A DNA stretch of 64,000 nucleotides from Candidatus Caccovivens sp. (GTDB lineage Bacteria; Bacillota; Clostridia; Christensenellales; UBA1242), in assembly GCA_051888935.1 (NCBI GenBank), contig JBJFCL010000039.1:9896-73895 (forward strand). Reading direction: 5' to 3'. The position numbers were made by a program, and so were the translations under genes. Shown in pieces: positions 14,951 through 26,025 of this stretch; position 1 is the first letter of the stretch; each line of letters opens with the position of its first letter. The notes beneath the pieces are model-generated. The model ran no database searches, was not told where the DNA came from, and saw only the letters and a list, made by a program, of their open reading frames with translations.

Positions 14951-15553
14951 ATGAAAAAAATAAAGCAGTTTTTTAGTGATTTTAAAGCATTCATTTCAAG
15001 AGGAAATGTGATTGACATGGCTGTCGGAGTTATCATAGGTGGTGCTTTTTCTGCCATTGTAACTGCCTTGACAAACAAAATTATTATGCCACTCATCAAT
15101 TTGTTGTTGTCTCTTGCCGGAGGAGCAGGTTTAGAATCTGCTCGTACAATTCTCGGAAACCCTGTCTACAACACACCAGGCGATGTTGCAAGCGGAATTA
15201 ACTGGGCATCAACAATTTATATTGATTGGGGTGCATTTATAACAGCAATAATTGATTTCTTGCTTATTGCATTTGTTCTTTTCACCATATTAAAAGTTAT
15301 GATGAGCGCGCAAGGTCTTTGGAAAAAAGGAATCAAAGAGCGCCCAACAAAAGAAGAAAGAAAGATTTTGAAAGCGGAAGGCGTAAATATGAAGGATTAT
15401 CGCGAAGTTATCGTTAAGACAGCTGAACTTCGTGAGAGAAACAAACCTGCACCACAGCCTCCAAAACCAACACAAGAACAACTTTTGACAGAGATATTGG
15501 CAGAACTTAAAAAACAAAATGAAGAAAAAGAGCACGAAGAAAAACAAGCATAA
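14951..15553 (+). CDS. mscL: large-conductance mechanosensitive channel MscL (long form)
   Basis: ATG at 14951 after TAGGAGAAATT. FKAFISRGNVIDMAVGVIIGGAFSAIVTALTNKIIMPLI is the diagnostic MscL TM1 region. At 200 aa it has a long loop and a Lys/Glu/Pro-rich C-terminal extension. Confidence 0.85.
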   Translation: MKKIKQFFSDFKAFISRGNVIDMAVGVIIGGAFSAIVTALTNKIIMPLINLLLSLAGGAGLESARTILGNPVYNTPGDVASGINWASTIYIDWGAFITAIIDFLLIAFVLFTILKVMMSAQGLWKKGIKERPTKEERKILKAEGVNMKDYREVIVKTAELRERNKPAPQPPKPTQEQLLTEILAELKKQNEEKEHEEKQA

Positions 15554-15811: not shown

Positions 15812-16207
15812 TTAGTCGTCGTGGCCATGGAATTCTGTAAGACGAATATTGTTTGCTTTGCGTTGTTCTTCCATGAGATTTGAGAACAAATCTCTTACAT
15901 AATATGGATTTTTGACATTAACAAGTCTCAAAGTTGGTTTGCTTTCATCGCTACTATACAAAGTCACAGTGCCACAATTAAGCATTTTCCCAAGTAAAGA
16001 CTGATGAAGAGAAATGTCGCAAATTCTATAAACATTGATTTCATCAATAACTGATGACAAGAATCCAATATCACAGAAAAGTTTTACCCAAGAACCTTGT
16101 TTTCTAATCAAGCGATAACGAGTAAAAGAAAGAGGCATACCCAAAAATCTTTTTCTGTCTTTCCAAATTAATTCTGCACCTTCTCCATACTTTCTTTCAA
16201 TATTCAT
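15812..16207 (-). CDS. bacterial PH-domain (bPH_2/YdbS-like) protein
   Basis: 131 aa. The KDRKRFLGMPLSFTRYRLIRK...GTVTLYSSD pattern is typical of bPH_2 proteins. Confidence 0.5.
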   Translation of the reverse strand: MNIERKYGEGAELIWKDRKRFLGMPLSFTRYRLIRKQGSWVKLFCDIGFLSSVIDEINVYRICDISLHQSLLGKMLNCGTVTLYSSDESKPTLRLVNVKNPYYVRDLFSNLMEEQRKANNIRLTEFHGHDD

Positions 16208-18173: not shown

Positions 18174-18202
18174 TTGACTTTTGAATGATGTTTTGATAAA
18201 AT
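18174..18202 (+). promoter_or_regulatory. near-consensus sigma-A promoter of the ESCRT-like operon
   Basis: TTGACT (18174-18179), 17-nt spacer, TAAAAT (18197-18202), 34 nt upstream of the first ATG. Confidence 0.6.
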
Positions 18203-18236: not shown

Positions 18237-19061
18237 ATGGAAAACATCATCACTTTTAAAGGACAAAATGTACAGTTGTTTAGCAAAATGGCGGTGCAAA
18301 ATTATTCTGCAAAAACTGCAATTATTGTGCCTGAAACTCATAATGCTATTTTGGTGAAAGACGGGCAAATGCTTCAAACATTATCGTCTGGCAAGTATCT
18401 CATTGGCAAGTTTGTTGATGTTAAAAATGAATTGGAAAGCAATTTGGAAATTTTGTTTATGTCCAAGACTGCAAAACTTAAACTTATGTGGGGAACAGCC
18501 AACAAGTTTGTTATGTATGACTCCACACTTCAAGAAAACTATGGCCTAGGAATGAGTGGAGATTTTGATGTTCAAATTGGTGACCCAAGAAAATGCTATC
18601 TTTATCTCGTCGGTGCAGATAATGACCTTACAAGTGATGCGTTGCAAGAGCGTTTAATGTCCACAGTAGTTTCCACTTTGGAAAATATTGTGATTGAATA
18701 TGTTGAAAAAAACAAGGTGATGTTCAATCAAATTTCCGCTTGTAAGCGTGAAATTTCTGCACAAGCACAAAAGCAATTAAATCAAAAGCTTATGAGTGAC
18801 TATGGTATTGCGGTTTTTTCTTTCAATATTGCAAACATTATAATAGGTGAAGAAGATTTGCAAAGACTGAATCAACAATACAAACAACTCAAAAAAACAG
18901 ATAACTTTGTTTGTCGTGAATGTGGGGCGGTTTTGCATGAAAATGACAAATTTTGCTCTTCTTGCGGAAAGAGAGTTGAAATTGGCAAGAAATGTCCAAA
19001 TTGCTTTACAGAAAATGCAGATGATGCCAAGTTTTGTTCGTCTTGTGGACAAAAACTTTAA
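18237..19061 (+). CDS. SPFH/Band-7-like protein with two C-terminal zinc ribbons (COG4260/YdjI-like)
   Basis: RBS GGGGGA. IIVPETHNAILVKDGQMLQTLSSGKYLI, LEILFMSKTAKLKLMWGT, FDVQIGDPRKC and YGIAVFSFNIANI follow the YdjI-type SPFH pattern. The C-terminus has CRECG..CSSCG and CPNC..CSSCG. Confidence 0.7.
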   Translation: MENIITFKGQNVQLFSKMAVQNYSAKTAIIVPETHNAILVKDGQMLQTLSSGKYLIGKFVDVKNELESNLEILFMSKTAKLKLMWGTANKFVMYDSTLQENYGLGMSGDFDVQIGDPRKCYLYLVGADNDLTSDALQERLMSTVVSTLENIVIEYVEKNKVMFNQISACKREISAQAQKQLNQKLMSDYGIAVFSFNIANIIIGEEDLQRLNQQYKQLKKTDNFVCRECGAVLHENDKFCSSCGKRVEIGKKCPNCFTENADDAKFCSSCGQKL

Positions 19062-19072
19062 AGGAGGGGAAT

Positions 19073-19477
19073 ATGCTGTTTGTTTACATAATTATTATGA
19101 TCGCCATTTTGGGAGTTGCAATATTCTTTATTTGCAAAGAATACATAAAAAAAGATGACTCCGCAAATGAAGGCAGTCGAGGAATAATCAAAAACAAAAA
19201 AACCATTGAAAATATGGTGGCAAATGTGGAAAGTATAATTGTTTATGCTGACGGAAATGATGTGCTTTGTCATAGACTTGTTGAGCTCAAAGACGATATT
19301 CGCTTTTTCAATCCAAGCACCAACAGCAGAGTTGCCATTGTTGACACAAAAATTGCCAACAAATTGGACGACTTAAAGATAATGGTGGCAAAGGATAACA
19401 CCCAAGAAACTTGTTTTAGACTTTTGGAAGAAGTTGAGGCATATGTTTTGGAGCGTAAAAAGGAAGAAAAGAACTGA
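19073..19477 (+). CDS. small N-terminally membrane-anchored protein, unknown family
   Basis: ATG at 19073 lies 5 nt after AGGAGGGG; the ORF-track start at 19034 overlaps the upstream gene. A single TM (LFVYIIIMIAILGVAIFFI) is followed by a roughly 105-aa helical cytoplasmic part. Confidence 0.55.
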   Translation: MLFVYIIIMIAILGVAIFFICKEYIKKDDSANEGSRGIIKNKKTIENMVANVESIIVYADGNDVLCHRLVELKDDIRFFNPSTNSRVAIVDTKIANKLDDLKIMVAKDNTQETCFRLLEEVEAYVLERKKEEKN

Positions 19478-19836
19478 TGAAAAGACAATATGAAACATCA
19501 GAGAATGTATCATCCGAAGACGCAGAGAAGGTTCTTAAAGAACTCAGACTTGGTTATCTCAATTTGTCAGATGGTGCTTTCGAGCAAGCGAAAATGTGTT
19601 TTACACTTGCACTACAATATGACAGCAAATGTGCAGATGCTTATTGGGGATTGATGTTGGAAAAATTCCAAATCAAAAATGAAGATGTTTTGGAAACAGA
19701 ACCAGTCCTTTACAAAAGTGCACTTGCATTGCCAGAATGTCAAAATGCATTGCAGTTTGCCAACGAAAAACAACTTGCTCAATATCAAAACTTGTTGGAA
19801 AGAATAGAAAAAGTCAACGAAGGTGACAACTACTAG
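19477..19836 (+). CDS. small TPR-like helical protein
   Basis: The start overlaps the upstream stop (TGATG). LGYLNLSDGAFEQAKMCFTLALQYDSKCADAYWGLMLEKFQIK resembles the TPR-like segment at the N-terminus of the 1255-aa protein (VGAYELAREQKFNEAVAEFDKILSLYPLSFESFYGKCLAKHKIV). Confidence 0.5.
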   Translation: MKRQYETSENVSSEDAEKVLKELRLGYLNLSDGAFEQAKMCFTLALQYDSKCADAYWGLMLEKFQIKNEDVLETEPVLYKSALALPECQNALQFANEKQLAQYQNLLERIEKVNEGDNY

Positions 19837-19865
19837 AAAAGTATGGAGTGAAAAGAGGAGAGATT

Positions 19866-20477
19866 ATGTGGTGGCCATTTAAAAGAAACAAATTTAAGAA
19901 TTTAAATAGAGAGGACCTTGTAAATTCCATTTGTGAACTTGAACGACAAGAACGCACAGCGGAAGCAGAAGTGTTTCAAAAAATAAAGGAAATTGATGCA
20001 CTTGTGGAAAAAGGAAAGAAAGAGAAAAACAAGGATTTGCAATTGTTTTATGCAAAGAAAATTGCACACTTAAACGAAGAGAAACAAGTTTGCATGGAGC
20101 GAGGAATGTATTTGCTTTACAACATTCGTCTTATGAACAAACTCAAAGACGCTTATGACAGCAACACTTTCTTCAAAACACAAACCAAAGTGCCCCTTTC
20201 AGAATTGCTTGTTGACCAGAAGCGCTTGGCTAAGTTTTTGAACAATGCACTTGAAACAAGAATTGCTTCCGAAGACATACTCACAAGCGCAGACGAACTT
20301 TTTGCCGAAGTTCAGTCAGCATATGATGTGAGTCAACCAATTTATGGAGTTGGCAAAACAGAAGAAGAAATTTTGACTATGTTCGAAAAAGAAAATCAAC
20401 TTGTTGATGAGCAGGAACTTGCACAAGAAAAAACAAGTGAACCTGTAAAAAAAAGAAAAGCAAAAATGGAGGAATAA
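19866..20477 (+). CDS. ESCRT-III (Snf7/CHMP4-like) superfamily protein, paralog A
   Basis: ATG at 19866 after GAGGAG; the ORF-track GTG at 19848 is less likely. 203 aa: basic N-terminus (WWPFKRNKFK), long heptad helical hairpin (KIKEIDALVEKGKKEKNKDLQLFYAKKIAHLNEEKQ...), acidic helical C-terminal half. Confidence 0.5.
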   Translation: MWWPFKRNKFKNLNREDLVNSICELERQERTAEAEVFQKIKEIDALVEKGKKEKNKDLQLFYAKKIAHLNEEKQVCMERGMYLLYNIRLMNKLKDAYDSNTFFKTQTKVPLSELLVDQKRLAKFLNNALETRIASEDILTSADELFAEVQSAYDVSQPIYGVGKTEEEILTMFEKENQLVDEQELAQEKTSEPVKKRKAKMEE

Positions 20478-20480
20478 AAA

Positions 20481-21074
20481 ATGGGACTTTTCAAATCAAA
20501 ACAACAAAAAGAAATTGAGAAAAAGATGCTTATTAAGCGCACAATCAACACTATGAACAAGCAAATAAATCGCTTGGAAGACCAAAAACAAGTGTTTATT
20601 GATGCTGCAAAGAGGGCAAAACAAAAAGGATTGGACGCACAATTCAACTTGGCTCTCTCCGGCTACAAGATGACTGTTCAACAACAAAGAAGAGCACAAG
20701 AAATGCTTTTAAATTTTGAAATAACAGCGCAGATGAAAGATGTGACCATGATGACGAGCGAGTTCTTGCGTGGAATGAGTGATATTTCAAAAGAAATGAC
20801 CCGCCTTGCAGACGCAAAAGAATTTGCAAAAATTCAAGCTCAATTTGAAGAAGCTATGGCTGCCGTTGAAACTCAAACCGACCAAATGGACAATTTTATG
20901 GAGATGAGTCAAGAAACTTTCTACAATCAAAGCAAAGACAAGTCTGGAAAAATGTCAGACGAGGAATTGGAGAAGTTTATTATGGAGCAAGCATCTCAGG
21001 ACGAACTTTCTGCGGAACAAATTGACAAGGAAATGGAAGAACTTAAAAAGAAGATTCAAGACGAAAACAACTAA
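20481..21074 (+). CDS. ESCRT-III (CHMP1/Vps2-like) superfamily protein, paralog B
   Basis: RBS GGAGGAA. 197 aa. The N-terminus is MGLFKSKQQKE. Also present: AAKRAKQKG, a helix-rich core, FEEAMAAVETQTDQMDNFM, and an acidic tail ending SQDELSAEQIDKEMEELKKKI (MIM-like amphipathic helix). Confidence 0.65.
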   Translation: MGLFKSKQQKEIEKKMLIKRTINTMNKQINRLEDQKQVFIDAAKRAKQKGLDAQFNLALSGYKMTVQQQRRAQEMLLNFEITAQMKDVTMMTSEFLRGMSDISKEMTRLADAKEFAKIQAQFEEAMAAVETQTDQMDNFMEMSQETFYNQSKDKSGKMSDEELEKFIMEQASQDELSAEQIDKEMEELKKKIQDENN

Positions 21075-21117
21075 GAATTAACAACTAGTTCAATTAAAGA
21101 TATATAAAGGAAAAATT

Positions 21118-22248
21118 ATGACAGAGACCAGCATGAATGTCTTATCCGACACCTTTGACCTTTATATGAAAAAAGGCAAAGAAGCAAAAACAAAAGGAAA
21201 CATTTCTCTTGCAAAAAGAAATTTTCTTCTTGCAAGTCAGACAATGATGCAAATGGCGAAACAGAGCCAAGGCAAACTTAAAGAAGTGCGTATGGAGCGT
21301 GCTAGACGACTTGTTGAACTTTCTGACAATTTGACCAAAACTCCTGTTAAAAACAGCAAAGATGACAGTTCAAAAGAGGAAGATGAAGACATAAAAAAAT
21401 GGCAATCTGCACAAATTCCAAATATTAAATTTAGCGATGTTGCTGGACTTGACGATGTGAAAAAAGCCATCACAATTCGAATGATAAACCCCATCAAATA
21501 TCCAGACAAATACAAAATGTATGCAAAAAAGACTGGTGGTGGAGTTCTTTTGTATGGACCTCCTGGCACAGGAAAAACTATGATTGCAAAAGCAATAGCC
21601 AATGAAGTGGGTGCAAAGTTTTATGCTGTCAAAGGTTCGGATATTGTAAGCAAATGGGTTGGAGACAGCGAAAAGAATATCAACTCTCTTTTTGAGGAGG
21701 CAAACAAACAAGACCGTGCCATTATTTTTATTGATGAAATGGACAGTCTTATCGGCAAACGCGGTGTTGACACTCACAATGATAAGCGTGTTAACGAGTT
21801 CTTACAACAAATTGATGGCTTTGCTGGCAGAAATCCAAATCTCTTGCTTCTTGGGGCAACAAACCGACCTTGGGATATTGATAGTGCAGCGATGCGTTCG
21901 GGAAGATTTTCACAAAAGATTTATCTTCCTCTCCCAGATGCTCCTGCAAGAAAATTTATGTTGGAAAAGAACATGAAAGGCGTTCCGGTGTCAAAAGATT
22001 TTAATATTGACAAAATTGTGTCACAGACCGAGATGTACAGCGGAGCGGACATTGAAGAACTTTGTGACCGAGCCAAAGATGAACCGCTTTTAAAAGCCAT
22101 TGCCACAGACAGTGTTATCGCAGTGACTAATGAAGATTTTGACAGAGTGCTTGAAGTTTTTCCTCCAAGCGTCACTGCAAAAGAATTGGCGCAGTTTGAA
22201 AATTATAACAAAGATATCAACAAATTATTGTCGAAAAATAAGAAATAA
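21118..22248 (+). CDS. Vps4/CdvC-like AAA+ ATPase with N-terminal MIT-like domain
   Basis: 376 aa. N-terminal three-helix segment: LYMKKGKEAKTKGNISLAKRNFLLASQTMMQMAKQSQGKLKEVRMERARRLVELSDNL. Acidic linker, Walker A GPPGTGKT (21556-21579), Walker B IIFIDEMD (21721-21744), second region of homology ATNRPWDIDSAAMRSGRF, and a meiotic-clade-like C-terminus PPSVTAKELAQFENY. Confidence 0.8.
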   Translation: MTETSMNVLSDTFDLYMKKGKEAKTKGNISLAKRNFLLASQTMMQMAKQSQGKLKEVRMERARRLVELSDNLTKTPVKNSKDDSSKEEDEDIKKWQSAQIPNIKFSDVAGLDDVKKAITIRMINPIKYPDKYKMYAKKTGGGVLLYGPPGTGKTMIAKAIANEVGAKFYAVKGSDIVSKWVGDSEKNINSLFEEANKQDRAIIFIDEMDSLIGKRGVDTHNDKRVNEFLQQIDGFAGRNPNLLLLGATNRPWDIDSAAMRSGRFSQKIYLPLPDAPARKFMLEKNMKGVPVSKDFNIDKIVSQTEMYSGADIEELCDRAKDEPLLKAIATDSVIAVTNEDFDRVLEVFPPSVTAKELAQFENYNKDINKLLSKNKK

Positions 22249-22257
22249 AGGGATTTC

Positions 22258-25200
22258 ATGAGAGAAAGAGCGTGTAAAAATTGTGGAGGCAAGAGTTATG
22301 AGGTTGTTGGGCAAAATATGGTGAAATGCCAATTTTGCGGAACTCTTTATGTTGACGAACACGCATCTAAGGAAGAGGAAGTTCTTCTCGTTGGTGCTTA
22401 TGAACTTGCCAGAGAACAGAAATTCAATGAAGCAGTTGCAGAATTTGATAAAATTTTGTCGCTTTATCCTCTTTCTTTTGAAAGTTTTTATGGCAAATGT
22501 CTTGCGAAGCATAAAATTGTTTTTTACAACACGCGAACAAGCAAAAAACCTCGTTTTTTCGGAGATGAAATTCCATCAATTTTGCAAGATGAAGATTTTT
22601 TGTCAGCAGTAGAAAATGCTCCAACTGAGACGGCAAAAACATATCAAGAACAAGCAAAAAAGATAGAGAAATTGCATCAAAGTTACTTGGAAAACAAAGA
22701 CACGACTTTTGATGTGGTTTTGGCGGACCCAAAACTGGACAAACAAGACGCAATCACTTTGCAAGCGGTCGAAAAATTGAAAGAAGCAGGGTTGAAACCT
22801 TATTTCTTACAAACTGTCAAAGAAAATGAAGCAACCACTTTTTGTGCTCTGAAATCTTGCAAAGTTTTTGTGTTGTTTGCAAATGACAAAAAAGGTTATA
22901 CAAATGCAGAAATCAAAAATTTGTATGATAGATATTTATATTTTATTTCACTTAAACAAAAAGCAAAATCCAGTTTGATAATTGCTCTTGACAGCAATAA
23001 TATCTCTCTTGATGTTCTGCCAAAAAAAATAACAACTTGCAAAAGCGTACTTGACTTAAATTCAACTTCATTTTTGCCTGATTTTGTCACAAAAGTGAAA
23101 GAAGAGATGTCCAAAACCATTGAAGTGATGGCGAGAATTGACACTGTCACAATTGAGAAAGTGACACCTCAAAAGAAAGAATATGTTGATGTTGAAAGTA
23201 TCGAACCAACAGACCTTGGGCACTATCATGTCGACAACATTAAACTTACAGATGAGAACAAAATAAAATGGTTATATTTGTGTTTAAAGAATGGAGATTT
23301 TGAATCCGCACAAGAAGTTGTTGAAAGCGAACTTGAAAAAAATAGTGTTTCATCGGAAATTGTGTTTGCACAAATGCTTTTGAAACGCCAAATAAAAACG
23401 CCAGATGAATTTTTTTCTAGTATCACAAATTTTCAAGACAAAGAAGAAATCGACAATCTTTTACAAAATGCCAACAAAGAATTTGCAGAGTATTTTGTGG
23501 ATAGTTTTGAAAACCTGATTATCAAACTTGACAATGAAGAATATTATGAAAAATACCTCTTGTATCTTGCAGGATTTAACACACCAAATCGTGAAAACTT
23601 TGTAAACAAAGCAGAAGATAAAGCAGTTGAAACTTTGGACGAAGATTTGATTGATATGGTGCTCAAATGTTTCAAGGCAGATGAAGTTGACAAATTTATA
23701 AATTTTTATTATTTGCTTGCTCAAAAGAGCGATGACAAAACTTATTACGAAAAAATTTTGCAAATTGACGAAGGTCATGAACAAAGCAATTTAGCAATGC
23801 TTTTATCTCATTTTAAAAGCACAGAGGACATTTTGTCCTATCAAAATCGTGAGCAAATTGAAGGAGTGTTTAAATATTTAAACGAAGATGCTCGTGCTCA
23901 TTTTGTTTCTGCCGTGGTGGATTTGATTTTGCCTGTGGCTTTTTGTGACCTTGAAAAAGCGCAATCCCAACTTGATTTTTATTTAGCATATGTGACGGAT
24001 ACAAAAAAATTGGTGGAACTTTTGAGAGAAATAGCAATAAAATTTCAAAGAATGAGATTTTTTAAAATTGCCGAGCGTTATATTTCAATAGCAATTTCCA
24101 AAGAACCTAATAGAGCGGAATTTTATTGGTTTTTGATATCCATAAAAGCACATTGCGTAAACGACAACGAAATGATTATGTCCATGAACAAAATCACTCA
24201 GTTTCCAGAGTGGGAAACACTTCTTTCTGTTGCAAATGAAAGTGAAGCTGAAAAATATGCCAATATTGCAAGCAAAATAAAACTCTACGAAGGACAAAAA
24301 ATTCCTTTAAAAGAGGAAATGTTAGACAAAAAACAACTAACAGAAAAATTAAATGATTTCATAATCAGAAATGAAAAGATTTTGCTTGAAATACAGAAAC
24401 AAGACGAAAAATATGCGAAAGGTGTGCGTTATTACAGTATGCAAATTCAACCTTTCAAAAATTATATGGAAGAATTGTCCAAAATTGAAGAATTTAGAGA
24501 TTATGAAGCAGTTTTTTCTAAAATTTGTACTCGTTTGGAACTTTTAGATTTAAATCTTTCAACTTCAATAAATGTTTCTCATCTTATGGACAGAGATGAA
24601 GGCTTGAAAAAAATATATGAAAATGCGCCAAGCATAGACGAGGAAAAAAGCAAACAAAGAAACAATGCTTCACATAAAAAGTTTTGGAAGAATTTTTTGA
24701 TTGTATTTTTGGGATTTGTTCCACTTTTGTTTACAACACTTTTGTTGGTCGTGACAACAATTGCACCAAAAGAAGTGTACATGTATTTTAATCAAGATTT
24801 CTTAGTGTACAGTGTGATATATAGCGTTGTGTTTGGAATGGTTTGTTTCGCAGTTTATGCAATAAACAAACATCAACTTAGCAAAAAGTGGAAAGTAATA
24901 GACCTTTTGCTGTTTATGATTGCTTTTGTCAATCTTTTGATTCTAACAATCGGAATATATTTTTTGCCAGGCACAGTTGGAATCACAAATGCACACGAAT
25001 TTGATGTTTTGTTACACAATGCAAGTGCTTCCAATTTTGTTTTAGAAGGAGATATTGACCTCAAAGACATTGAATGGTCACCAGTAAACTTTACAGGTAC
25101 ATTGAACGGACAAAATCATAAAATCGAAAATTTGAAATTTAAATCACAAAAATCATTGTCACTATTTGGGAGAAATAGTGGAAATATTGCCAATCTTCAA

Positions 25201-26025
25201 ATTGTTTTGTCAGATAATGAATATAAAGAAATTACAAGTTTTGCGGGTGTTGCGACTGCAAATTATGGAACAATTTCAAATTGTGTTGTGAATGGAACAC
25301 TGACAATTCAAACCAATTTAGATGCAGTTATCGGCGGGCTTGTTGGGAAAAATTATGCAGATATTGAAAATTGTCAAACATCGTTGACCATAACTATTGA
25401 TGCAGGCTATAACGATGTTGTTGTTGGCGGACTTGTTGGAATTTCAACAGAGGGGAAAATTTTGCCAGTAGTAAAGAAAAACGCTTCCAACATCACACTA
25501 AATGCAATTATGACGGATTGCAAAAAATTTGTTTGTGGCGGACTTATTGGAAAAGTTTACAATCACCAAACTTTGTCACAAAACGAATCTCATGTTGATA
25601 TTGCGATTGCTGGTTCTTCTCAAAACACAAATGTTGGTGGTTTGTTTGGGGAAGAATATTTTGCTAGTGCTGACAATTATTCAACAGGCGAAATTGATTT
25701 AACAGATGTAAGTTCGACTGCTTGCGTTGGAGGAATAACTGGACAATTTAAAAATTCCAACCGTGAAATAACAATACTTCATTCATATTCCACGATTGAA
25801 ATAATTGGAGGTTCAAACATTGTCAAAGGTGGTCTTGTTGGAGAGATGGAAGGATATATTGATTCTTGTTTTTCCAATCAAACCATTGAACTATATGGAA
25901 CAAAGACAACTCATGCAGAGACAATAAACTGCGAAAAACTTTTAAGTGAAGTATATGACCCAAAATTCAACTTTTCTGAGGATATTTGGGAGATTTCAAA
26001 AACAAATTATCCAACACTTAAATAA
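22258..26025 (+). CDS. multidomain membrane protein: zinc ribbon, TIR-like region, TPR-like array, 3 TM helices, extracellular GLUG beta-helix
   Basis: 1255 aa. The zinc ribbon is CKNCGG..CQFCG. A possible TIR-like segment starts at TFDVVLADPKLDKQDAI...CKVFVLFAND. A long helical repeat region follows. The three TM helices lie at about 24685-24975. The C-terminus begins FTGTLNGQNHKIENL and then has six GG(L/I)xG repeats (IGGLVGKN, VGGLVGIS, CGGLIGKV, VGGLFGEE, VGGITGQF, KGGLVGEM). Confidence 0.7.
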   Translation: MRERACKNCGGKSYEVVGQNMVKCQFCGTLYVDEHASKEEEVLLVGAYELAREQKFNEAVAEFDKILSLYPLSFESFYGKCLAKHKIVFYNTRTSKKPRFFGDEIPSILQDEDFLSAVENAPTETAKTYQEQAKKIEKLHQSYLENKDTTFDVVLADPKLDKQDAITLQAVEKLKEAGLKPYFLQTVKENEATTFCALKSCKVFVLFANDKKGYTNAEIKNLYDRYLYFISLKQKAKSSLIIALDSNNISLDVLPKKITTCKSVLDLNSTSFLPDFVTKVKEEMSKTIEVMARIDTVTIEKVTPQKKEYVDVESIEPTDLGHYHVDNIKLTDENKIKWLYLCLKNGDFESAQEVVESELEKNSVSSEIVFAQMLLKRQIKTPDEFFSSITNFQDKEEIDNLLQNANKEFAEYFVDSFENLIIKLDNEEYYEKYLLYLAGFNTPNRENFVNKAEDKAVETLDEDLIDMVLKCFKADEVDKFINFYYLLAQKSDDKTYYEKILQIDEGHEQSNLAMLLSHFKSTEDILSYQNREQIEGVFKYLNEDARAHFVSAVVDLILPVAFCDLEKAQSQLDFYLAYVTDTKKLVELLREIAIKFQRMRFFKIAERYISIAISKEPNRAEFYWFLISIKAHCVNDNEMIMSMNKITQFPEWETLLSVANESEAEKYANIASKIKLYEGQKIPLKEEMLDKKQLTEKLNDFIIRNEKILLEIQKQDEKYAKGVRYYSMQIQPFKNYMEELSKIEEFRDYEAVFSKICTRLELLDLNLSTSINVSHLMDRDEGLKKIYENAPSIDEEKSKQRNNASHKKFWKNFLIVFLGFVPLLFTTLLLVVTTIAPKEVYMYFNQDFLVYSVIYSVVFGMVCFAVYAINKHQLSKKWKVIDLLLFMIAFVNLLILTIGIYFLPGTVGITNAHEFDVLLHNASASNFVLEGDIDLKDIEWSPVNFTGTLNGQNHKIENLKFKSQKSLSLFGRNSGNIANLQIVLSDNEYKEITSFAGVATANYGTISNCVVNGTLTIQTNLDAVIGGLVGKNYADIENCQTSLTITIDAGYNDVVVGGLVGISTEGKILPVVKKNASNITLNAIMTDCKKFVCGGLIGKVYNHQTLSQNESHVDIAIAGSSQNTNVGGLFGEEYFASADNYSTGEIDLTDVSSTACVGGITGQFKNSNREITILHSYSTIEIIGGSNIVKGGLVGEMEGYIDSCFSNQTIELYGTKTTHAETINCEKLLSEVYDPKFNFSEDIWEISKTNYPTLK

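What the first reader, a model, noticed from the sequence alone, without database searches (positions are those of the whole stretch)
19866..20477. Second, divergent ESCRT-III-like paralog (Snf7/CHMP4-like layout) directly upstream
Seen in sequence: 203 aa with a basic aromatic N-terminus (MWWPFKRNKFK) that could insert into membrane. KIKEIDALVEKGKKEKNKDLQLFYAKKIAHLNEEKQ mirrors the KKHGTKNKRAALQALKRKK hairpin-tip region I recall from Snf7/CHMP4. An acidic helical C-terminal half follows (EEEILTMFEKENQLVDEQELAQEK), then a basic tip (KKRKAK). Two different ESCRT-III-type subunits next to one ATPase would resemble the nucleator-plus-remodeller arrangement of eukaryotic and Asgard systems, rather than the single-gene PspA arrangement.
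Basis: partly seen in the sequence, partly recalled or inferred. Interest (0 to 1): 0.7.

Follow-up and report, generated by a model that had tools for sequence, protein, structure and literature searches.

The report
Second ESCRT-III-like subunit in Clostridia
This 203-residue gene of an uncultured gut Clostridia bacterium most likely encodes a very divergent ESCRT-III-type membrane-remodelling subunit. It sits in a conserved operon with a second such subunit and a Vps4-style ATPase, a pairing that recent reviews describe as absent from bacteria.

Summary
It defines an unannotated protein family ('A'). A genome scan found 114 encoding stretches, and all 80 loci kept come from uncultured Clostridia genomes (Caccovivens, Coproplasma and Christensenellaceae-type MAGs).

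The family nearly always sits in the order SPFH/Band_7_1 protein, small membrane protein, A, B, AAA ATPase.

Standard searches (Pfam, NCBIfam, PDB sequence profiles) find nothing for A. Three other lines of evidence do point to ESCRT-III:
- With a diverse alignment, AlphaFold2 gives a confident long helical hairpin followed by two further helices (mean pLDDT 78).
- The best Foldseek match is Asgard ESCRT-IIIB, but it is not significant (E=0.07).
- Profile-profile comparison with a validated ESCRT-III profile gives P about 1-3e-5 (probability 74-81%), in register over the hairpin. This is far above shuffled and reversed controls, and at the level of the accepted PspA-to-ESCRT-III link.

Neighbour B is a clearer Snf7 relative and carries a conserved C-terminal motif with MIM1 spacing; A has none. 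The ATPase has a Vps4-like layout, but its AAA domain is as close to Cdc48 as to CdvC.

The specific CHMP4 affinity and the 'nucleator' role remain inference.

The parts
18237..19061 (+). First gene of the operon. It encodes a soluble SPFH protein (Band_7_1) with two C-terminal zinc ribbons, the same architecture as B. subtilis YdjI. A promoter-like site lies just upstream at 18174-18202.
   Evidence: Pfam gives Band_7_1 at E=9e-15 and zinc-ribbon/DZR models at E about 1e-11 to 1e-12. The promoter-like site is TTGACT-17-TAAAAT with a TG. The gene is present upstream of A in 73 of the 80 loci and in distant contigs. The YdjI architecture 'Band-7+ZnR' is listed in the supplement of PMC11237479.
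19034..19477 (+). Small single-pass membrane protein ('TM147'). Its real start is probably the ATG at about 19073 (MLFVYIII...). It is the likely membrane anchor of the SPFH/A module.
   Evidence: The ORF and its sequence are, and the N-terminal hydrophobic helix is visible in the sequence. There is no Pfam family. A small gene lies between the SPFH gene and A in 53 of 80 loci and in L081, L083 and L084.
19477..19836 (+). TPR-like 119-aa protein found only in the clade closest to the window.
   Evidence: It gives only faint TPR hits. A stand-alone homologue is found only in L001-L022; in L041, L075 and L079 the match falls inside a much larger gene.
19866..20477 (+). The finding: protein A, 203 aa, a divergent ESCRT-III-like subunit. 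Predicted parts: an N-terminal aromatic/basic motif MWWPFKRNKFK (residues 1-13); alpha1 at 15-52 (nt 19908-20021); a hairpin tip EKN; alpha2/3 at 56-107 (nt 20031-20186); alpha4 at 118-152 (nt 20217-20321); the conserved IYG...(D/E)xxLLAxFE motif with an alpha5-like helix at 159-191 (nt 20340-20438); and a variable acidic tail.
   Evidence: ORF, start codon and ribosome-binding site. Family and conservation. AlphaFold2 model. Foldseek. hhalign against ESCRT-III with controls. Charge asymmetry. Motif counts.
20481..21074 (+). Protein B, 197 aa, a divergent Snf7-family ESCRT-III protein whose translation is coupled to A. Its N-terminus MGLFKSK resembles CHMP3 MGLFGK. A conserved C-terminal motif IDKEMEELKKKI (residues 181-192, nt 21021-21056) has MIM1 spacing.
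   Evidence: Pfam Snf7 is the most recurrent match, in 23 of 43 members. The best E-value is 5.4e-4, and the matches are nearly full-length and collinear. hhalign against ESCRT-III gives global P=2.5e-6 to 5e-6, probability 70-77%, while the best shuffled global score is 16.8 against the observed 32.1. There is no similarity to PspA/Vipp1. The MIM1-spaced motif is present in 76 of 79 members.
21118..22248 (+). AAA ATPase, 376 aa, with a Vps4-like layout: an N-terminal three-helix MIT-like domain (residues about 8-75, nt 21139-21342), a charged linker, one classical AAA domain with pore loop SKWVGDSEK, and a C-terminal Vps4_C-type helix.
   Evidence: Pfam AAA at E=1.7e-42. NCBIfam CdvC at E=3e-61 covers residues 24-365 of the protein and positions 26-366 of the 370-position model, but scores below the curated cut-off; CDC48 scores E=3e-63. 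BLASTP to validated human VPS4B gives 37% identity starting at residue 1. Vps4_C is found in 25 of 25 members. The MIT evidence is weak.
22258..26025 (+). Last gene of the operon, encoding 1255 aa. It has an N-terminal zinc ribbon and a TPR-like cytoplasmic region, three hydrophobic segments at about residues 800-905, and a C-terminal GLUG/beta-helix-like domain that is probably outside the cell.
   Evidence: ORF. Pfam gives only faint GLUG, TPR and pectate-lyase-like hits. Homologues occur in most loci, but at variable positions relative to B and the ATPase.

Best explanation
[quoted passage not shown] It is one of two different ESCRT-III-type subunits encoded side by side in a chromosomal operon of uncultured Clostridia.

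Proposed mechanism (all steps inferred):
1. The soluble YdjI-like SPFH protein and the small membrane protein mark or sense a membrane site and recruit A. A inserts its aromatic/basic N-terminus (MWPFK...) into the bilayer and polymerises through its alpha1-alpha2/3 hairpin and its alpha5-like IYG/LLAMFE helix.
2. B co-assembles with A.
3. B's C-terminal motif with MIM1 spacing is bound by the MIT-like N-domain of the AAA ATPase. The ATPase then threads subunits through its pore (loop KWVG) and so remodels or disassembles the polymer, driving membrane repair, scission or vesiculation.

What is shown:
- The gene and the family are real.
- Gene order is conserved down to 20% identity.
- The hairpin fold is predicted with high confidence.
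- A matches ESCRT-III at the profile level, well above controls.
- B matches Snf7.
- The motifs are conserved.

What is inferred: polymerisation, membrane binding, the SPFH-A contact, the B-ATPase contact, and the cellular role.
For: - Fold: AlphaFold2 with 46 diverse sequences gives mean pLDDT 77.7. Helices 15-52 and 56-107 form a hairpin (pLDDT 87-97), followed by helices 118-152 and 165-191. This matches the alpha1 to alpha5 layout of open ESCRT-III.
- Foldseek against the PDB: the top hit in both runs is Asgard ESCRT-IIIB 9ftl (probability 0.96 and 0.99). About half of the top 30 hits are Vipp1, PspA, CHMP1B, CHMP2A/3 or IST1.
- hhalign against a validated ESCRT-III profile: local P=1.3e-5 to 2.9e-5 (probability 74-81%) and global P=7e-6 to 1.5e-4. 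The alignment is in register, with N-terminal motif opposite N-terminal motif and hairpin tip opposite hairpin tip. Controls: shuffles reach at most 22.9 against the observed 40.0; the reversed alignment scores 14.5; decoy families from the same operon give P=0.013 to 0.89. Calibration: PspA/Vipp1 against the same profile gives local P=6.6e-5.
- Charge asymmetry typical of ESCRT-III: +3.8 in the N-half and -11.1 in the C-half across 120 members.
- Context: A is followed by B in 77 of 80 loci, directly so in nearly all (L042 has the big gene in between). The operon also holds the ATPase and is preceded by SPFH. This holds even for the most divergent family member, at 20% identity.
- B is a Snf7-family protein. 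It carries a MIM1-spaced C-terminal motif in 76 of 79 members, against 0 of 120 for A.
- The ATPase aligns with VPS4B from residue 1.
- Precedent for SPFH recruitment: B. subtilis PspA needs the SPFH protein YdjI and membrane partners to reach the membrane (PMC8581546).
Against: - No curated model (Pfam Snf7, PspA_IM30, NCBIfam) and no PDB sequence detects A, even when 46 members are scanned singly.
- No Foldseek hit is significant (best E=0.067). BAR domains, SNAREs, a Borrelia surface protein and designed helical bundles are mixed in with the ESCRT-III hits.
- The hhalign signal depends on alignment diversity and on the broad ESCRT-III profile. It is weak with shallow A alignments and with sub-profiles (P=0.006 to 0.28). 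The probabilities are 74-81%, not above 95%.
- The A-to-B similarity is marginal.
- Helices 118-152 are predicted at only pLDDT 54-70.
- Long helical hairpins can arise by convergence.
- The central MIM1 arginine is an invariant glutamate in B.
- The MIT assignment of the ATPase N-domain is weak.
- The ATPase has the RSGRF second-region-of-homology motif of Cdc48/FtsH-type AAA proteins, rather than the RRRF of Vps4.
Confidence: 0.7

Rival explanations
1. A is not homologous to ESCRT-III. On this view it is a lineage-specific coiled-coil adaptor or regulator that links the SPFH protein and the membrane anchor to the real ESCRT-III protein B, in the way CdvA or other PspA-associated coiled-coil proteins do. 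Its hairpin and charge pattern would then be convergent.
For: - Every direct HMM search is negative.
- Foldseek E-values are not significant, and generic helical proteins are interleaved with the ESCRT-III hits.
- The A-to-B similarity is marginal.
- A travels with SPFH and the small membrane protein, and in one contig does so without B or the ATPase (L083).
- Ravi et al. describe unrelated coiled-coil proteins next to PspA/Snf7 genes (PMC11237479).
Against: - The profile-profile match to ESCRT-III is in register, collinear from the N-terminal motif to the alpha5 region, and far above the shuffled, reversed and decoy controls.
- The best structural match is an ESCRT-III filament subunit in both models.
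- The N-terminal motif, helix lengths and charge asymmetry all fit ESCRT-III.
Confidence: 0.2
2. A is an ESCRT-III superfamily protein of the bacterial PspA/LiaH branch. On this view the operon is a Psp-type envelope-stress system (PspA with a YdjI-like SPFH protein) that later acquired B and an ATPase.
For: - The SPFH(+ZnR), membrane protein and A trio mirrors the B. subtilis pspA-ydjGHI operon.
- A keeps this trio when B and the ATPase are absent or displaced.
- PspA next to a two-AAA-domain ATPase has been reported in Clostridium.
Against: - hhalign of A against a validated PspA/Vipp1 profile gives no signal: global P=0.99, local P=0.05. However, that profile holds only two sequences.
- No PspA_IM30 hit appears among the families reported for the 46 members scanned.
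- The match is to the Snf7/CHMP profile instead.
Confidence: 0.1
3. The operon is not a housekeeping membrane-remodelling machine. On this view it is an anti-phage or other conflict system built around an IetA-like AAA ATPase, with A and B as effectors or sensors.
For: The ATPase gives hits to the PADLOC IetA models (E=1e-38) and to the NCBIfam IteA model (E=8e-32). SPFH proteins and zinc-ribbon proteins do occur in defence islands (own knowledge).
Against: - The IetA and TRIP13 hits are generic AAA similarity, and no other operon protein matches any PADLOC model.
- No IetS-type protease partner is present.
- The flanking genes are housekeeping genes (NifU, MscL, SDR, ABC exporter), with no mobile-element genes.
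- The operon proteins lose identity together across the 80 loci, which looks like vertical inheritance rather than the patchy spread of defence systems.
Confidence: 0.05

Closest known systems
Two-subunit Asgard archaeal ESCRT-IIIA/ESCRT-IIIB plus Vps4 (e.g. Heimdallarchaeota ESCRT-IIIB, PDB 9ftl; PMC11804906, PMC11791191)
   Same: - Two different ESCRT-III-type genes lie next to one AAA ATPase that has an N-terminal MIT-type domain.
- Only one of the two subunits carries a C-terminal motif with MIM1 spacing.
- 9ftl is the best structural match of the A model.
- Both A and B have a basic N-half and an acidic C-half.
   Different: - The host is a bacterium (Clostridia).
- No ESCRT-I, ESCRT-II or ubiquitin genes are present. 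Instead there is an SPFH protein, a small membrane protein and a 1255-aa membrane protein.
- Sequence similarity is far below family thresholds.
- The ATPase has a Cdc48-like RSGRF motif. It appears to lack the Vps4 beta-domain, judging from its length and the VPS4B alignment rather than from a direct test. In sister lineages it carries an extra SpoVK-like AAA domain.
B. subtilis PspA-YdjG-YdjH-YdjI envelope-stress module (PMC8581546)
   Same: An ESCRT-III superfamily protein is encoded together with a soluble Band-7/SPFH protein that carries a zinc ribbon, and with small membrane proteins. In Bacillus these recruit PspA to the membrane.
   Different: - Here the ESCRT-III-like proteins match Snf7 rather than PspA_IM30.
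- There are two of them.
- A Vps4-style AAA ATPase is part of the operon.
- The gene order is SPFH first.
Crenarchaeal CdvA-CdvB-CdvC cell-division system
   Same: An ESCRT-III homologue is paired with a CdvC/Vps4-type ATPase. The NCBIfam CdvC model aligns over nearly the whole ATPase at E=3e-61. An additional helical partner is encoded upstream.
   Different: - The CdvC score is far below the equivalog cut-off (207 against 650 bits).
- There is no PRC-barrel CdvA.
- B has no winged-helix domain.
- A role in division has not been tested.
Bacterial PspA plus two-AAA-domain ATPase dyads, and bacterial Vps4-like ATPases without Snf7 (Ravi et al. 2024, PMC11237479)
   Same: These are bacterial ESCRT-III superfamily genes next to classical AAA ATPases, including in Clostridium. 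The roughly 690-aa ATPase variants seen here in sister lineages also have two AAA domains.
   Different: - In those reports the partner is a bona fide PspA_IM30 protein, or Snf7 is missing altogether and replaced by a TPR+6TM protein.
- The SPFH, membrane protein, A, B, MIT-like AAA operon is not described there or in the reviews searched.

Membership tests
ESCRT-III superfamily (protein A) | A long alpha1-alpha2/3 helical hairpin forms the core. | tested here: met
   AlphaFold2 predicts helices 15-52 and 56-107 with a 3-residue turn. With the 46-sequence alignment the hairpin has pLDDT 87-97, and it is also present with the shallow alignment. This is a prediction, not an experimental structure.
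ESCRT-III superfamily (protein A) | Further helices alpha4 and alpha5 follow a hinge, giving the five-helix core. | tested here: inconclusive
   Helices 118-152 (pLDDT 54-70) and 165-191 (about 82) are predicted in the right order and with the right lengths. Confidence is moderate, and their packing could not be inspected.
ESCRT-III superfamily (protein A) | Detectable sequence or profile homology to Snf7 (PF03357) or PspA_IM30 (PF04012). | tested here: inconclusive
   hmmscan and hmmsearch are negative. hhalign against a validated ESCRT-III profile is positive at P=1.3e-5 to 2.9e-5, probability 74-81%, well above controls and equal to the PspA-to-ESCRT-III benchmark. It is negative against the PspA/Vipp1 profile. 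The result is supportive but below the certainty usually required.
ESCRT-III superfamily (protein A) | Structural similarity to solved ESCRT-III subunits. | tested here: inconclusive
   The top Foldseek hit is Asgard ESCRT-IIIB (probability 0.96 and 0.99; TM-score 0.42-0.50), and many Vipp1, CHMP and IST1 hits follow. The best E-value is 0.067, and no hit reaches E<=1e-3.
ESCRT-III superfamily (protein A) | An N-terminal membrane-binding motif (alpha0) together with a basic N-half and an acidic C-half. | tested here: met
   The motif M-W-(W)-P-F-K-x-K-[FY] is conserved at the N-terminus. Net charge is +3.8 in the N-half and -11.1 in the C-half across 120 members. Membrane binding itself was not tested.
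ESCRT-III superfamily (protein A) | Self-assembly or co-assembly into membrane-bound polymers. | not testable with these tools
   This needs purified protein with EM or liposome assays, or multimer structure prediction, which was not available.
Snf7 family PF03357 (protein B, the neighbour) | A match to the Pfam Snf7 model. | tested here: inconclusive
   23 of 43 members match over nearly the whole model (positions 6-157 of 171), but all score below the gathering threshold (best 20.1 against 27.3 bits, E=5.4e-4). hhalign gives global P=2.5e-6, probability 77%.
Vps4/CdvC ATPases (the operon ATPase) | An N-terminal MIT domain. | tested here: inconclusive
   Pfam MIT is found in 3 of 25 N-domains (best E=1.4e-3). 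The top PDB profile hit is 2mpk (chitin synthase 1) at E=0.05; I know that entry from memory as an MIT domain. hhalign against a small MIT profile recalled from memory and not separately checked gives P=0.023. The BLAST alignment to VPS4B runs through the MIT region.
Vps4/CdvC ATPases (the operon ATPase) | A single AAA domain of the Vps4 (meiotic-clade) type, with the Vps4 second region of homology and a beta-domain. | tested here: not met
   - There is a single AAA domain with pore loop SKWVGDSEK, like Vps4.
- The second region of homology reads RSGRF, as in Cdc48/FtsH/PAN, where VPS4B has RRRF.
- The alignment to VPS4B ends before the beta-domain region, and the protein is 68 residues shorter.
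- The CDC48 and CdvC models score equally, and both are far below their cut-offs.
- Conclusion: the ATPase is Vps4-like in architecture, but orthology is not supported.
Vps4/CdvC ATPases (the operon ATPase) | A C-terminal Vps4_C helix. | tested here: met
   PF09336 matches 25 of 25 C-termini (best E=2e-7). However, the alignment to p97 D2 also extends through this region, so the feature does not discriminate.
PspA/Vipp1 family PF04012 (protein A) | Profile similarity to PspA_IM30. | tested here: not met
   No PspA_IM30 hit appears in the Pfam output for the family. hhalign against the validated E. coli PspA plus Synechocystis Vipp1 profile gives global P=0.99 and local P=0.05. That profile is small (two sequences).

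The most novel reading that the evidence does not exclude
A vertically inherited bacterial membrane-remodelling machine of the ESCRT-III/Vps4 type may exist in uncultured Clostridia. It would consist of two distinct ESCRT-III subunits, one coupled through a motif with MIM1 spacing to an MIT-like AAA ATPase, and would be recruited by a YdjI-like SPFH protein.

Because the ATPase looks Cdc48-derived, and sister lineages carry a two-AAA form, this could be an independent bacterial re-invention of the Vps4 solution, or else a very old transfer. [quoted passage not shown]
Probability: 0.5. Interest if true: 0.85.

Novelty: new variant of a known kind. Interest (0 to 1): 0.7.

Why it matters
Recent reviews state that a Vps4-like ATPase 'appears absent in bacteria' (PMC7619361). 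[quoted passage not shown] Liu et al. 2021 left open whether any ATPase assists bacterial ESCRT-III proteins.

The operon around this gene offers a concrete candidate in bacteria. It has two ESCRT-III-type subunits, one with a C-terminal motif of MIM1 spacing, next to a Vps4-style ATPase. It is tied to an SPFH protein of the kind that recruits PspA in Bacillus.

If confirmed, it would give three things:
- A bacterial model for ATP-driven ESCRT-III remodelling.
- A test case for whether the 'two subunits plus ATPase' logic is ancient, transferred or convergent.
- Two new protein families (A and B) that current Pfam and NCBIfam models miss.

Protein A matters specifically because it makes the system a two-subunit one, and because it appears to be the link to the SPFH module.

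Tried and rejected
- Pfam, NCBIfam and PADLOC scans of A found no hits.
- Scanning 46 diverse A members singly against Pfam gave only scattered coiled-coil noise, with no Snf7 or PspA.
- PDB sequence-profile searches with the A alignments (shallow and diverse) found nothing meaningful. The best hits were a phage coat protein and COG2 at E=0.04 to 0.17.
- hhalign of shallow A and B alignments found nothing. This showed that alignment diversity is essential.
- The search for related loci with the 46-sequence alignment failed because no block was conserved enough. It was rerun with 10 closer sequences.
- Assigning A or B to a eukaryotic A-type or B-type ESCRT-III subfamily did not work. The sub-profiles are too thin, and both proteins score slightly better against the CHMP2/3/1 group, which is not informative.
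- Merging B with ESCRT-III into one profile did not improve the match to A.
- hhalign of the ATPase N-domain against a three-sequence MIT profile gave P=0.023, against 0.051 for the reversed control, which is inconclusive.
- PDB searches meant to rank Vps4 against Cdc48 were swamped by two-domain p97 entries. The best single-domain chain was fidgetin-like 1.
- The defence-system reading gained no support beyond generic AAA hits.
- Literature searches found no description of this operon.
Full report
**1. The observation**

The window region 18.2-26.0 kb carries seven tightly packed genes on the + strand. The ORF list gives 19848-20477 with a GTG start. The ATG at 19866 has a strong Shine-Dalgarno sequence (AGAGGAGAG) six bases upstream. 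It also yields the N-terminus MWWPFK..., which all homologues share.

The next gene, B, starts 3 nt after A's stop codon, and its ribosome-binding site lies inside the end of A. A promoter-like site lies upstream of the first gene (18174-18202), and the next strong ones come only after 26.1 kb. This fits a single operon from 18237 to 26025. The flanking genes are ordinary chromosomal genes: NifU, an amidase, MscL, bPH_2, an SDR and an ABC exporter.

**2. The family and its surroundings**

A has 259 homologues at E<=1e-3 among 90%-identity clusters, all unnamed 'hypothetical proteins' from Clostridia MAGs. It has 101 representatives among 50%-identity clusters, about 50 of them full length and reaching down to 20% identity.

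A scan of one genome per GTDB species found 114 encoding stretches. All 80 loci that were kept come from uncultured Clostridia genomes such as Candidatus Caccovivens, Coproplasma, Stercoripulliclostridium and Christensenellaceae-type MAGs.

In those 80 loci the order SPFH, small membrane protein, A, B, AAA ATPase is almost universal, and the few gaps lie mostly at contig ends. The most divergent family member (P0336, 20% identity) still sits in Band_7_1, 96-aa gene, A, B (33% identical to the window's B), AAA.

The rearrangements are informative:
- In L042 the order is SPFH, TM, A, big gene, B, AAA.
- In L028, L030 and L033 it is A, B, big gene, AAA.
- In L083 an A-like gene follows Band_7_1 and a small gene, but is followed by a trypsin-like protease, and no B or ATPase lies within the contig.

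So A travels with the SPFH module, and B travels with the ATPase.

**3. What direct searches say**

Pfam and NCBIfam give nothing for A. For the window's B they give only noise. PDB sequence-profile searches with shallow and diverse alignments of A and B are negative. Scanning 46 A members singly against Pfam gives no Snf7 or PspA hit among the families reported.

B behaves differently. Among 43 diverse B members, Pfam Snf7 is the most frequent match: 23 members, best E=5.4e-4. The matches are collinear and nearly full length (protein 13-168 against model 6-157 of 171), although all score below the gathering threshold.

**4. Structure prediction for A**

With 26 close homologues, AlphaFold2 gave mean pLDDT 61 but already showed a confident hairpin. 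With the 46-sequence diverse alignment the mean pLDDT is 77.7. The predicted helices are 15-52 and 56-107 (block pLDDT 87-97), 118-152 (54-70) and 165-191 (about 82). This is the helix order and length pattern of an open ESCRT-III subunit: alpha1, fused alpha2/3, alpha4, alpha5.

Foldseek against the PDB put the Asgard ESCRT-IIIB filament subunit 9ftl first for both models (probability 0.96 and 0.99; E=0.12 and 0.067). Vipp1, PspA, CHMP1B, CHMP2A/3, IST1, Snf7 and CdvB2 fill much of the list. No hit is significant, however, and BAR domains, SNAREs and designed bundles are interleaved. The structure is consistent with ESCRT-III but not decisive.

**5. Profile-profile tests**

No HHpred database was available, so I built reference profiles myself. 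Their profiles hit the corresponding PDB chains at E=1e-42 to 1e-148, and also Asgard ESCRT-IIIB at 2.4e-14. A database search with the ESCRT-III alignment returned only PF03357-annotated proteins, including YLR025W at 99% identity. Eighty-six of these were added to make an extended ESCRT-III profile.

hhalign results:

| Query against the extended ESCRT-III profile | Local | Global |
|---|---|---|
| B family | P=1.3e-4 | P=2.5e-6 to 5e-6 (probability 70-77%) |
| A, 125-sequence alignment | P=2.1e-5 to 2.9e-5 (74-77%) | P=7.7e-5 to 1.5e-4 |
| A, 46 most diverse sequences | P=1.3e-5 (81%) | P=7.1e-6 (66%; 206 collinear columns) |
| PspA/Vipp1 (accepted homologues, for calibration) | P=6.6e-5 (64%) | P=2.7e-7 (89%) |

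- B shows nothing against PspA/Vipp1, and its block-shuffled controls reach a global score of at most 16.8 against the observed 32.1.
- The local alignment of A covers residues about 17-96 against Snf7 24-109. That is the hairpin, with the EKGK tip opposite TKGN. The global alignment also puts MWPFK opposite the xLFG N-terminal motif, and A's (D/E)xxLLAxFE region opposite the acidic helix after alpha4 of Snf7.
- Controls for A: 40 column- or block-shuffles gave a local score of at most 22.9 (observed 40.0) and a global score of at most 11.3 (observed 23.9). The reversed alignment scored 14.5 and 3.5. The SPFH and TM147 families from the same loci gave P=0.89 and 0.013.
- A against PspA/Vipp1 is negative.
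- A against B is collinear end to end but marginal: global P=4e-4, score 21.4 against a best of 19.0 in 60 shuffles.
- The A signal vanishes with shallow alignments and weakens with sub-profiles. Subfamily assignment (CHMP4-like or otherwise) is therefore not possible.

**6. Other ESCRT-III hallmarks**

Both families have a basic N-half and an acidic C-half: A +3.8/-11.1 and B +9.0/-11.8, compared with Snf7 +7/-26 and CHMP1B +13/-12. Both start with an aromatic/hydrophobic-plus-basic motif (A: MWPFK.K; B: MGLFKSK), like Snf7 MWSSLFGW and CHMP3 MGLFGK.

B ends in a strictly conserved I-[DE]-K-E-L-E-E-L-[KR]-K-K-[IM] motif, 3-10 residues from the C-terminus and preceded by a variable acidic linker. 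The MIM1 spacing pattern [LIVM]xx[ERK][LIMF]xx[LIM][KR] occurs there in 76 of 79 B proteins and in 0 of 120 A proteins. It also matches the CHMP1B, CHMP2A and CHMP3 MIM1 sequences. The central Arg of canonical MIM1 is an invariant Glu in B.

A's conserved C-terminal element is instead I-Y-G-x(4-5)-(D/E)-x-x-L-L-A-x-F-E, found in 99-114 of 120 members, followed by a variable tail.

**7. The ATPase**

It has one AAA domain (Pfam E=1.7e-42). The NCBIfam CdvC model aligns over nearly its whole length (E=3e-61). The CDC48, FtsH and PAN models score about the same, and all are far below their cut-offs.

BLASTP to human VPS4B (recalled sequence, validated at 993 bits against 7l9x) gives 37% identity in one alignment that starts at residue 1 of both proteins and runs through the MIT region. 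The pore loop SKWVGDSEK matches SKWLGESEK.

Independent MIT evidence is weak. Pfam MIT is found in 3 of 25 N-domains (best E=1.4e-3). The top PDB profile hit is 2mpk (chitin synthase 1) at E=0.05, an entry I recall as an MIT domain. hhalign against a small recalled MIT profile gives P=0.023.

Vps4_C is found in 25 of 25 C-termini, but the p97 D2 alignment also extends through this region. The second region of homology reads RSGRF (Cdc48/FtsH type), not RRRF, and the Vps4 beta-domain appears to be missing.

Across lineages the ATPase occurs in three forms. One is about 372 aa. One is about 500 aa with a C-terminal extension. One is about 690 aa with an extra SpoVK/CbbX-like AAA domain between the conserved N-domain and the classical AAA domain. 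It is therefore Vps4-like in architecture and probably in function, but it is not demonstrably a Vps4 orthologue.

**8. The other operon members**

The first gene encodes a soluble Band_7_1 SPFH protein with two zinc ribbons. This is the architecture listed for B. subtilis YdjI ('Band-7+ZnR'). YdjI, together with the membrane proteins YdjG and YdjH, is required to bring PspA to the membrane (PMC8581546).

The small protein after it has a single N-terminal transmembrane helix. The last gene encodes a 1255-aa protein with a zinc ribbon and TPR-like cytoplasmic part, three hydrophobic segments, and a GLUG/beta-helix-like C-terminal domain. PADLOC recognises nothing except generic AAA similarity.

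**9. Interpretation**

The best-supported reading is that A is a very divergent ESCRT-III superfamily subunit, and the second of two in this operon. By analogy with PspA-YdjI, the SPFH protein and the small membrane protein recruit A. A and B then form a mixed polymer on the cytoplasmic membrane. The MIT-like ATPase engages B's C-terminal motif and remodels the polymer. Only the sequence, fold-prediction and gene-order parts of this are shown; every interaction and the cellular role are inferred.

The rivals are:
- A convergent coiled-coil adaptor (about 0.2).
- A PspA-branch origin for A (about 0.1).
- A conflict or defence system (about 0.05).

**10. Relation to the literature**

Bacterial ESCRT-III superfamily proteins (PspA, Vipp1) are well known. 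Ravi et al. 2024 reported Vps4-like ATPases in bacteria without Snf7, and PspA next to two-AAA ATPases in Clostridium. The 2024-2025 overviews nevertheless state that Vps4-plus-ESCRT-III systems are absent from bacteria. No paper in the searchable library describes this operon.

I therefore rate it as a new variant of a known kind. It comprises new, unmodelled families within the ESCRT-III superfamily, arranged in a bacterial two-subunit-plus-ATPase system linked to SPFH.

Noticed in passing
window 21118-22248; loci L023-L079 (e.g. L032:8209-10302, L024:8179-9735): The operon's ATPase exists in three forms across lineages, and all three share the same MIT-like N-domain. One is about 372 aa with a single AAA domain. 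One is about 500 aa with a low-complexity/beta-rich C-terminal extension. One is about 690 aa with an additional SpoVK/CbbX-like AAA domain (GNPGTGKT) inserted before the classical AAA domain.
   Followed up: partly
L083:4765-7456 (Logan SRR7774474 contig): A distant A-like gene (P0309, 27% identity) follows Band_7_1 and a 109-aa gene. It is followed by a trypsin-like protease, and no B or ATPase gene lies in the roughly 1.1 kb of contig left after the A-like gene. This suggests that SPFH, small protein and A form a separable module.
   Followed up: partly
L081:838-4948 (JGI 3300073248 contig): Upstream of the most divergent copy of the operon lie PP2C phosphatase, Ser/Thr kinase and VWA genes, plus a 360-aa gene with no Pfam hit, all on the same strand. 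This may be a phospho-signalling input to the system.
   Followed up: no
window 19477-19836 and 22258-26025: A stand-alone homologue of the 119-aa TPR-like gene occurs only in the clade closest to the window. In L041, L075 and L079 the gene gives BLAST cross-hits to large proteins, which in L075 and L079 are the same ORFs matched by the 1255-aa protein. It may therefore be a split-off or duplicated fragment of that gene.
   Followed up: no
window 21021-21056 (B residues 181-192) and all B homologues: B's C-terminal motif keeps MIM1 spacing, but it has an invariant glutamate where canonical MIM1 has the arginine that contacts the MIT domain. If the motif does bind the N-domain, the charge pair may be reversed.
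   Followed up: partly
window 14951-15553 and 15812-16207 (-): An MscL mechanosensitive channel (with a long charged C-terminal extension) and a bPH_2 protein lie 3-4 kb upstream of the operon. Both are membrane-stress-related, but they are separated from the operon by unrelated genes and lie partly on the other strand.
   Followed up: no
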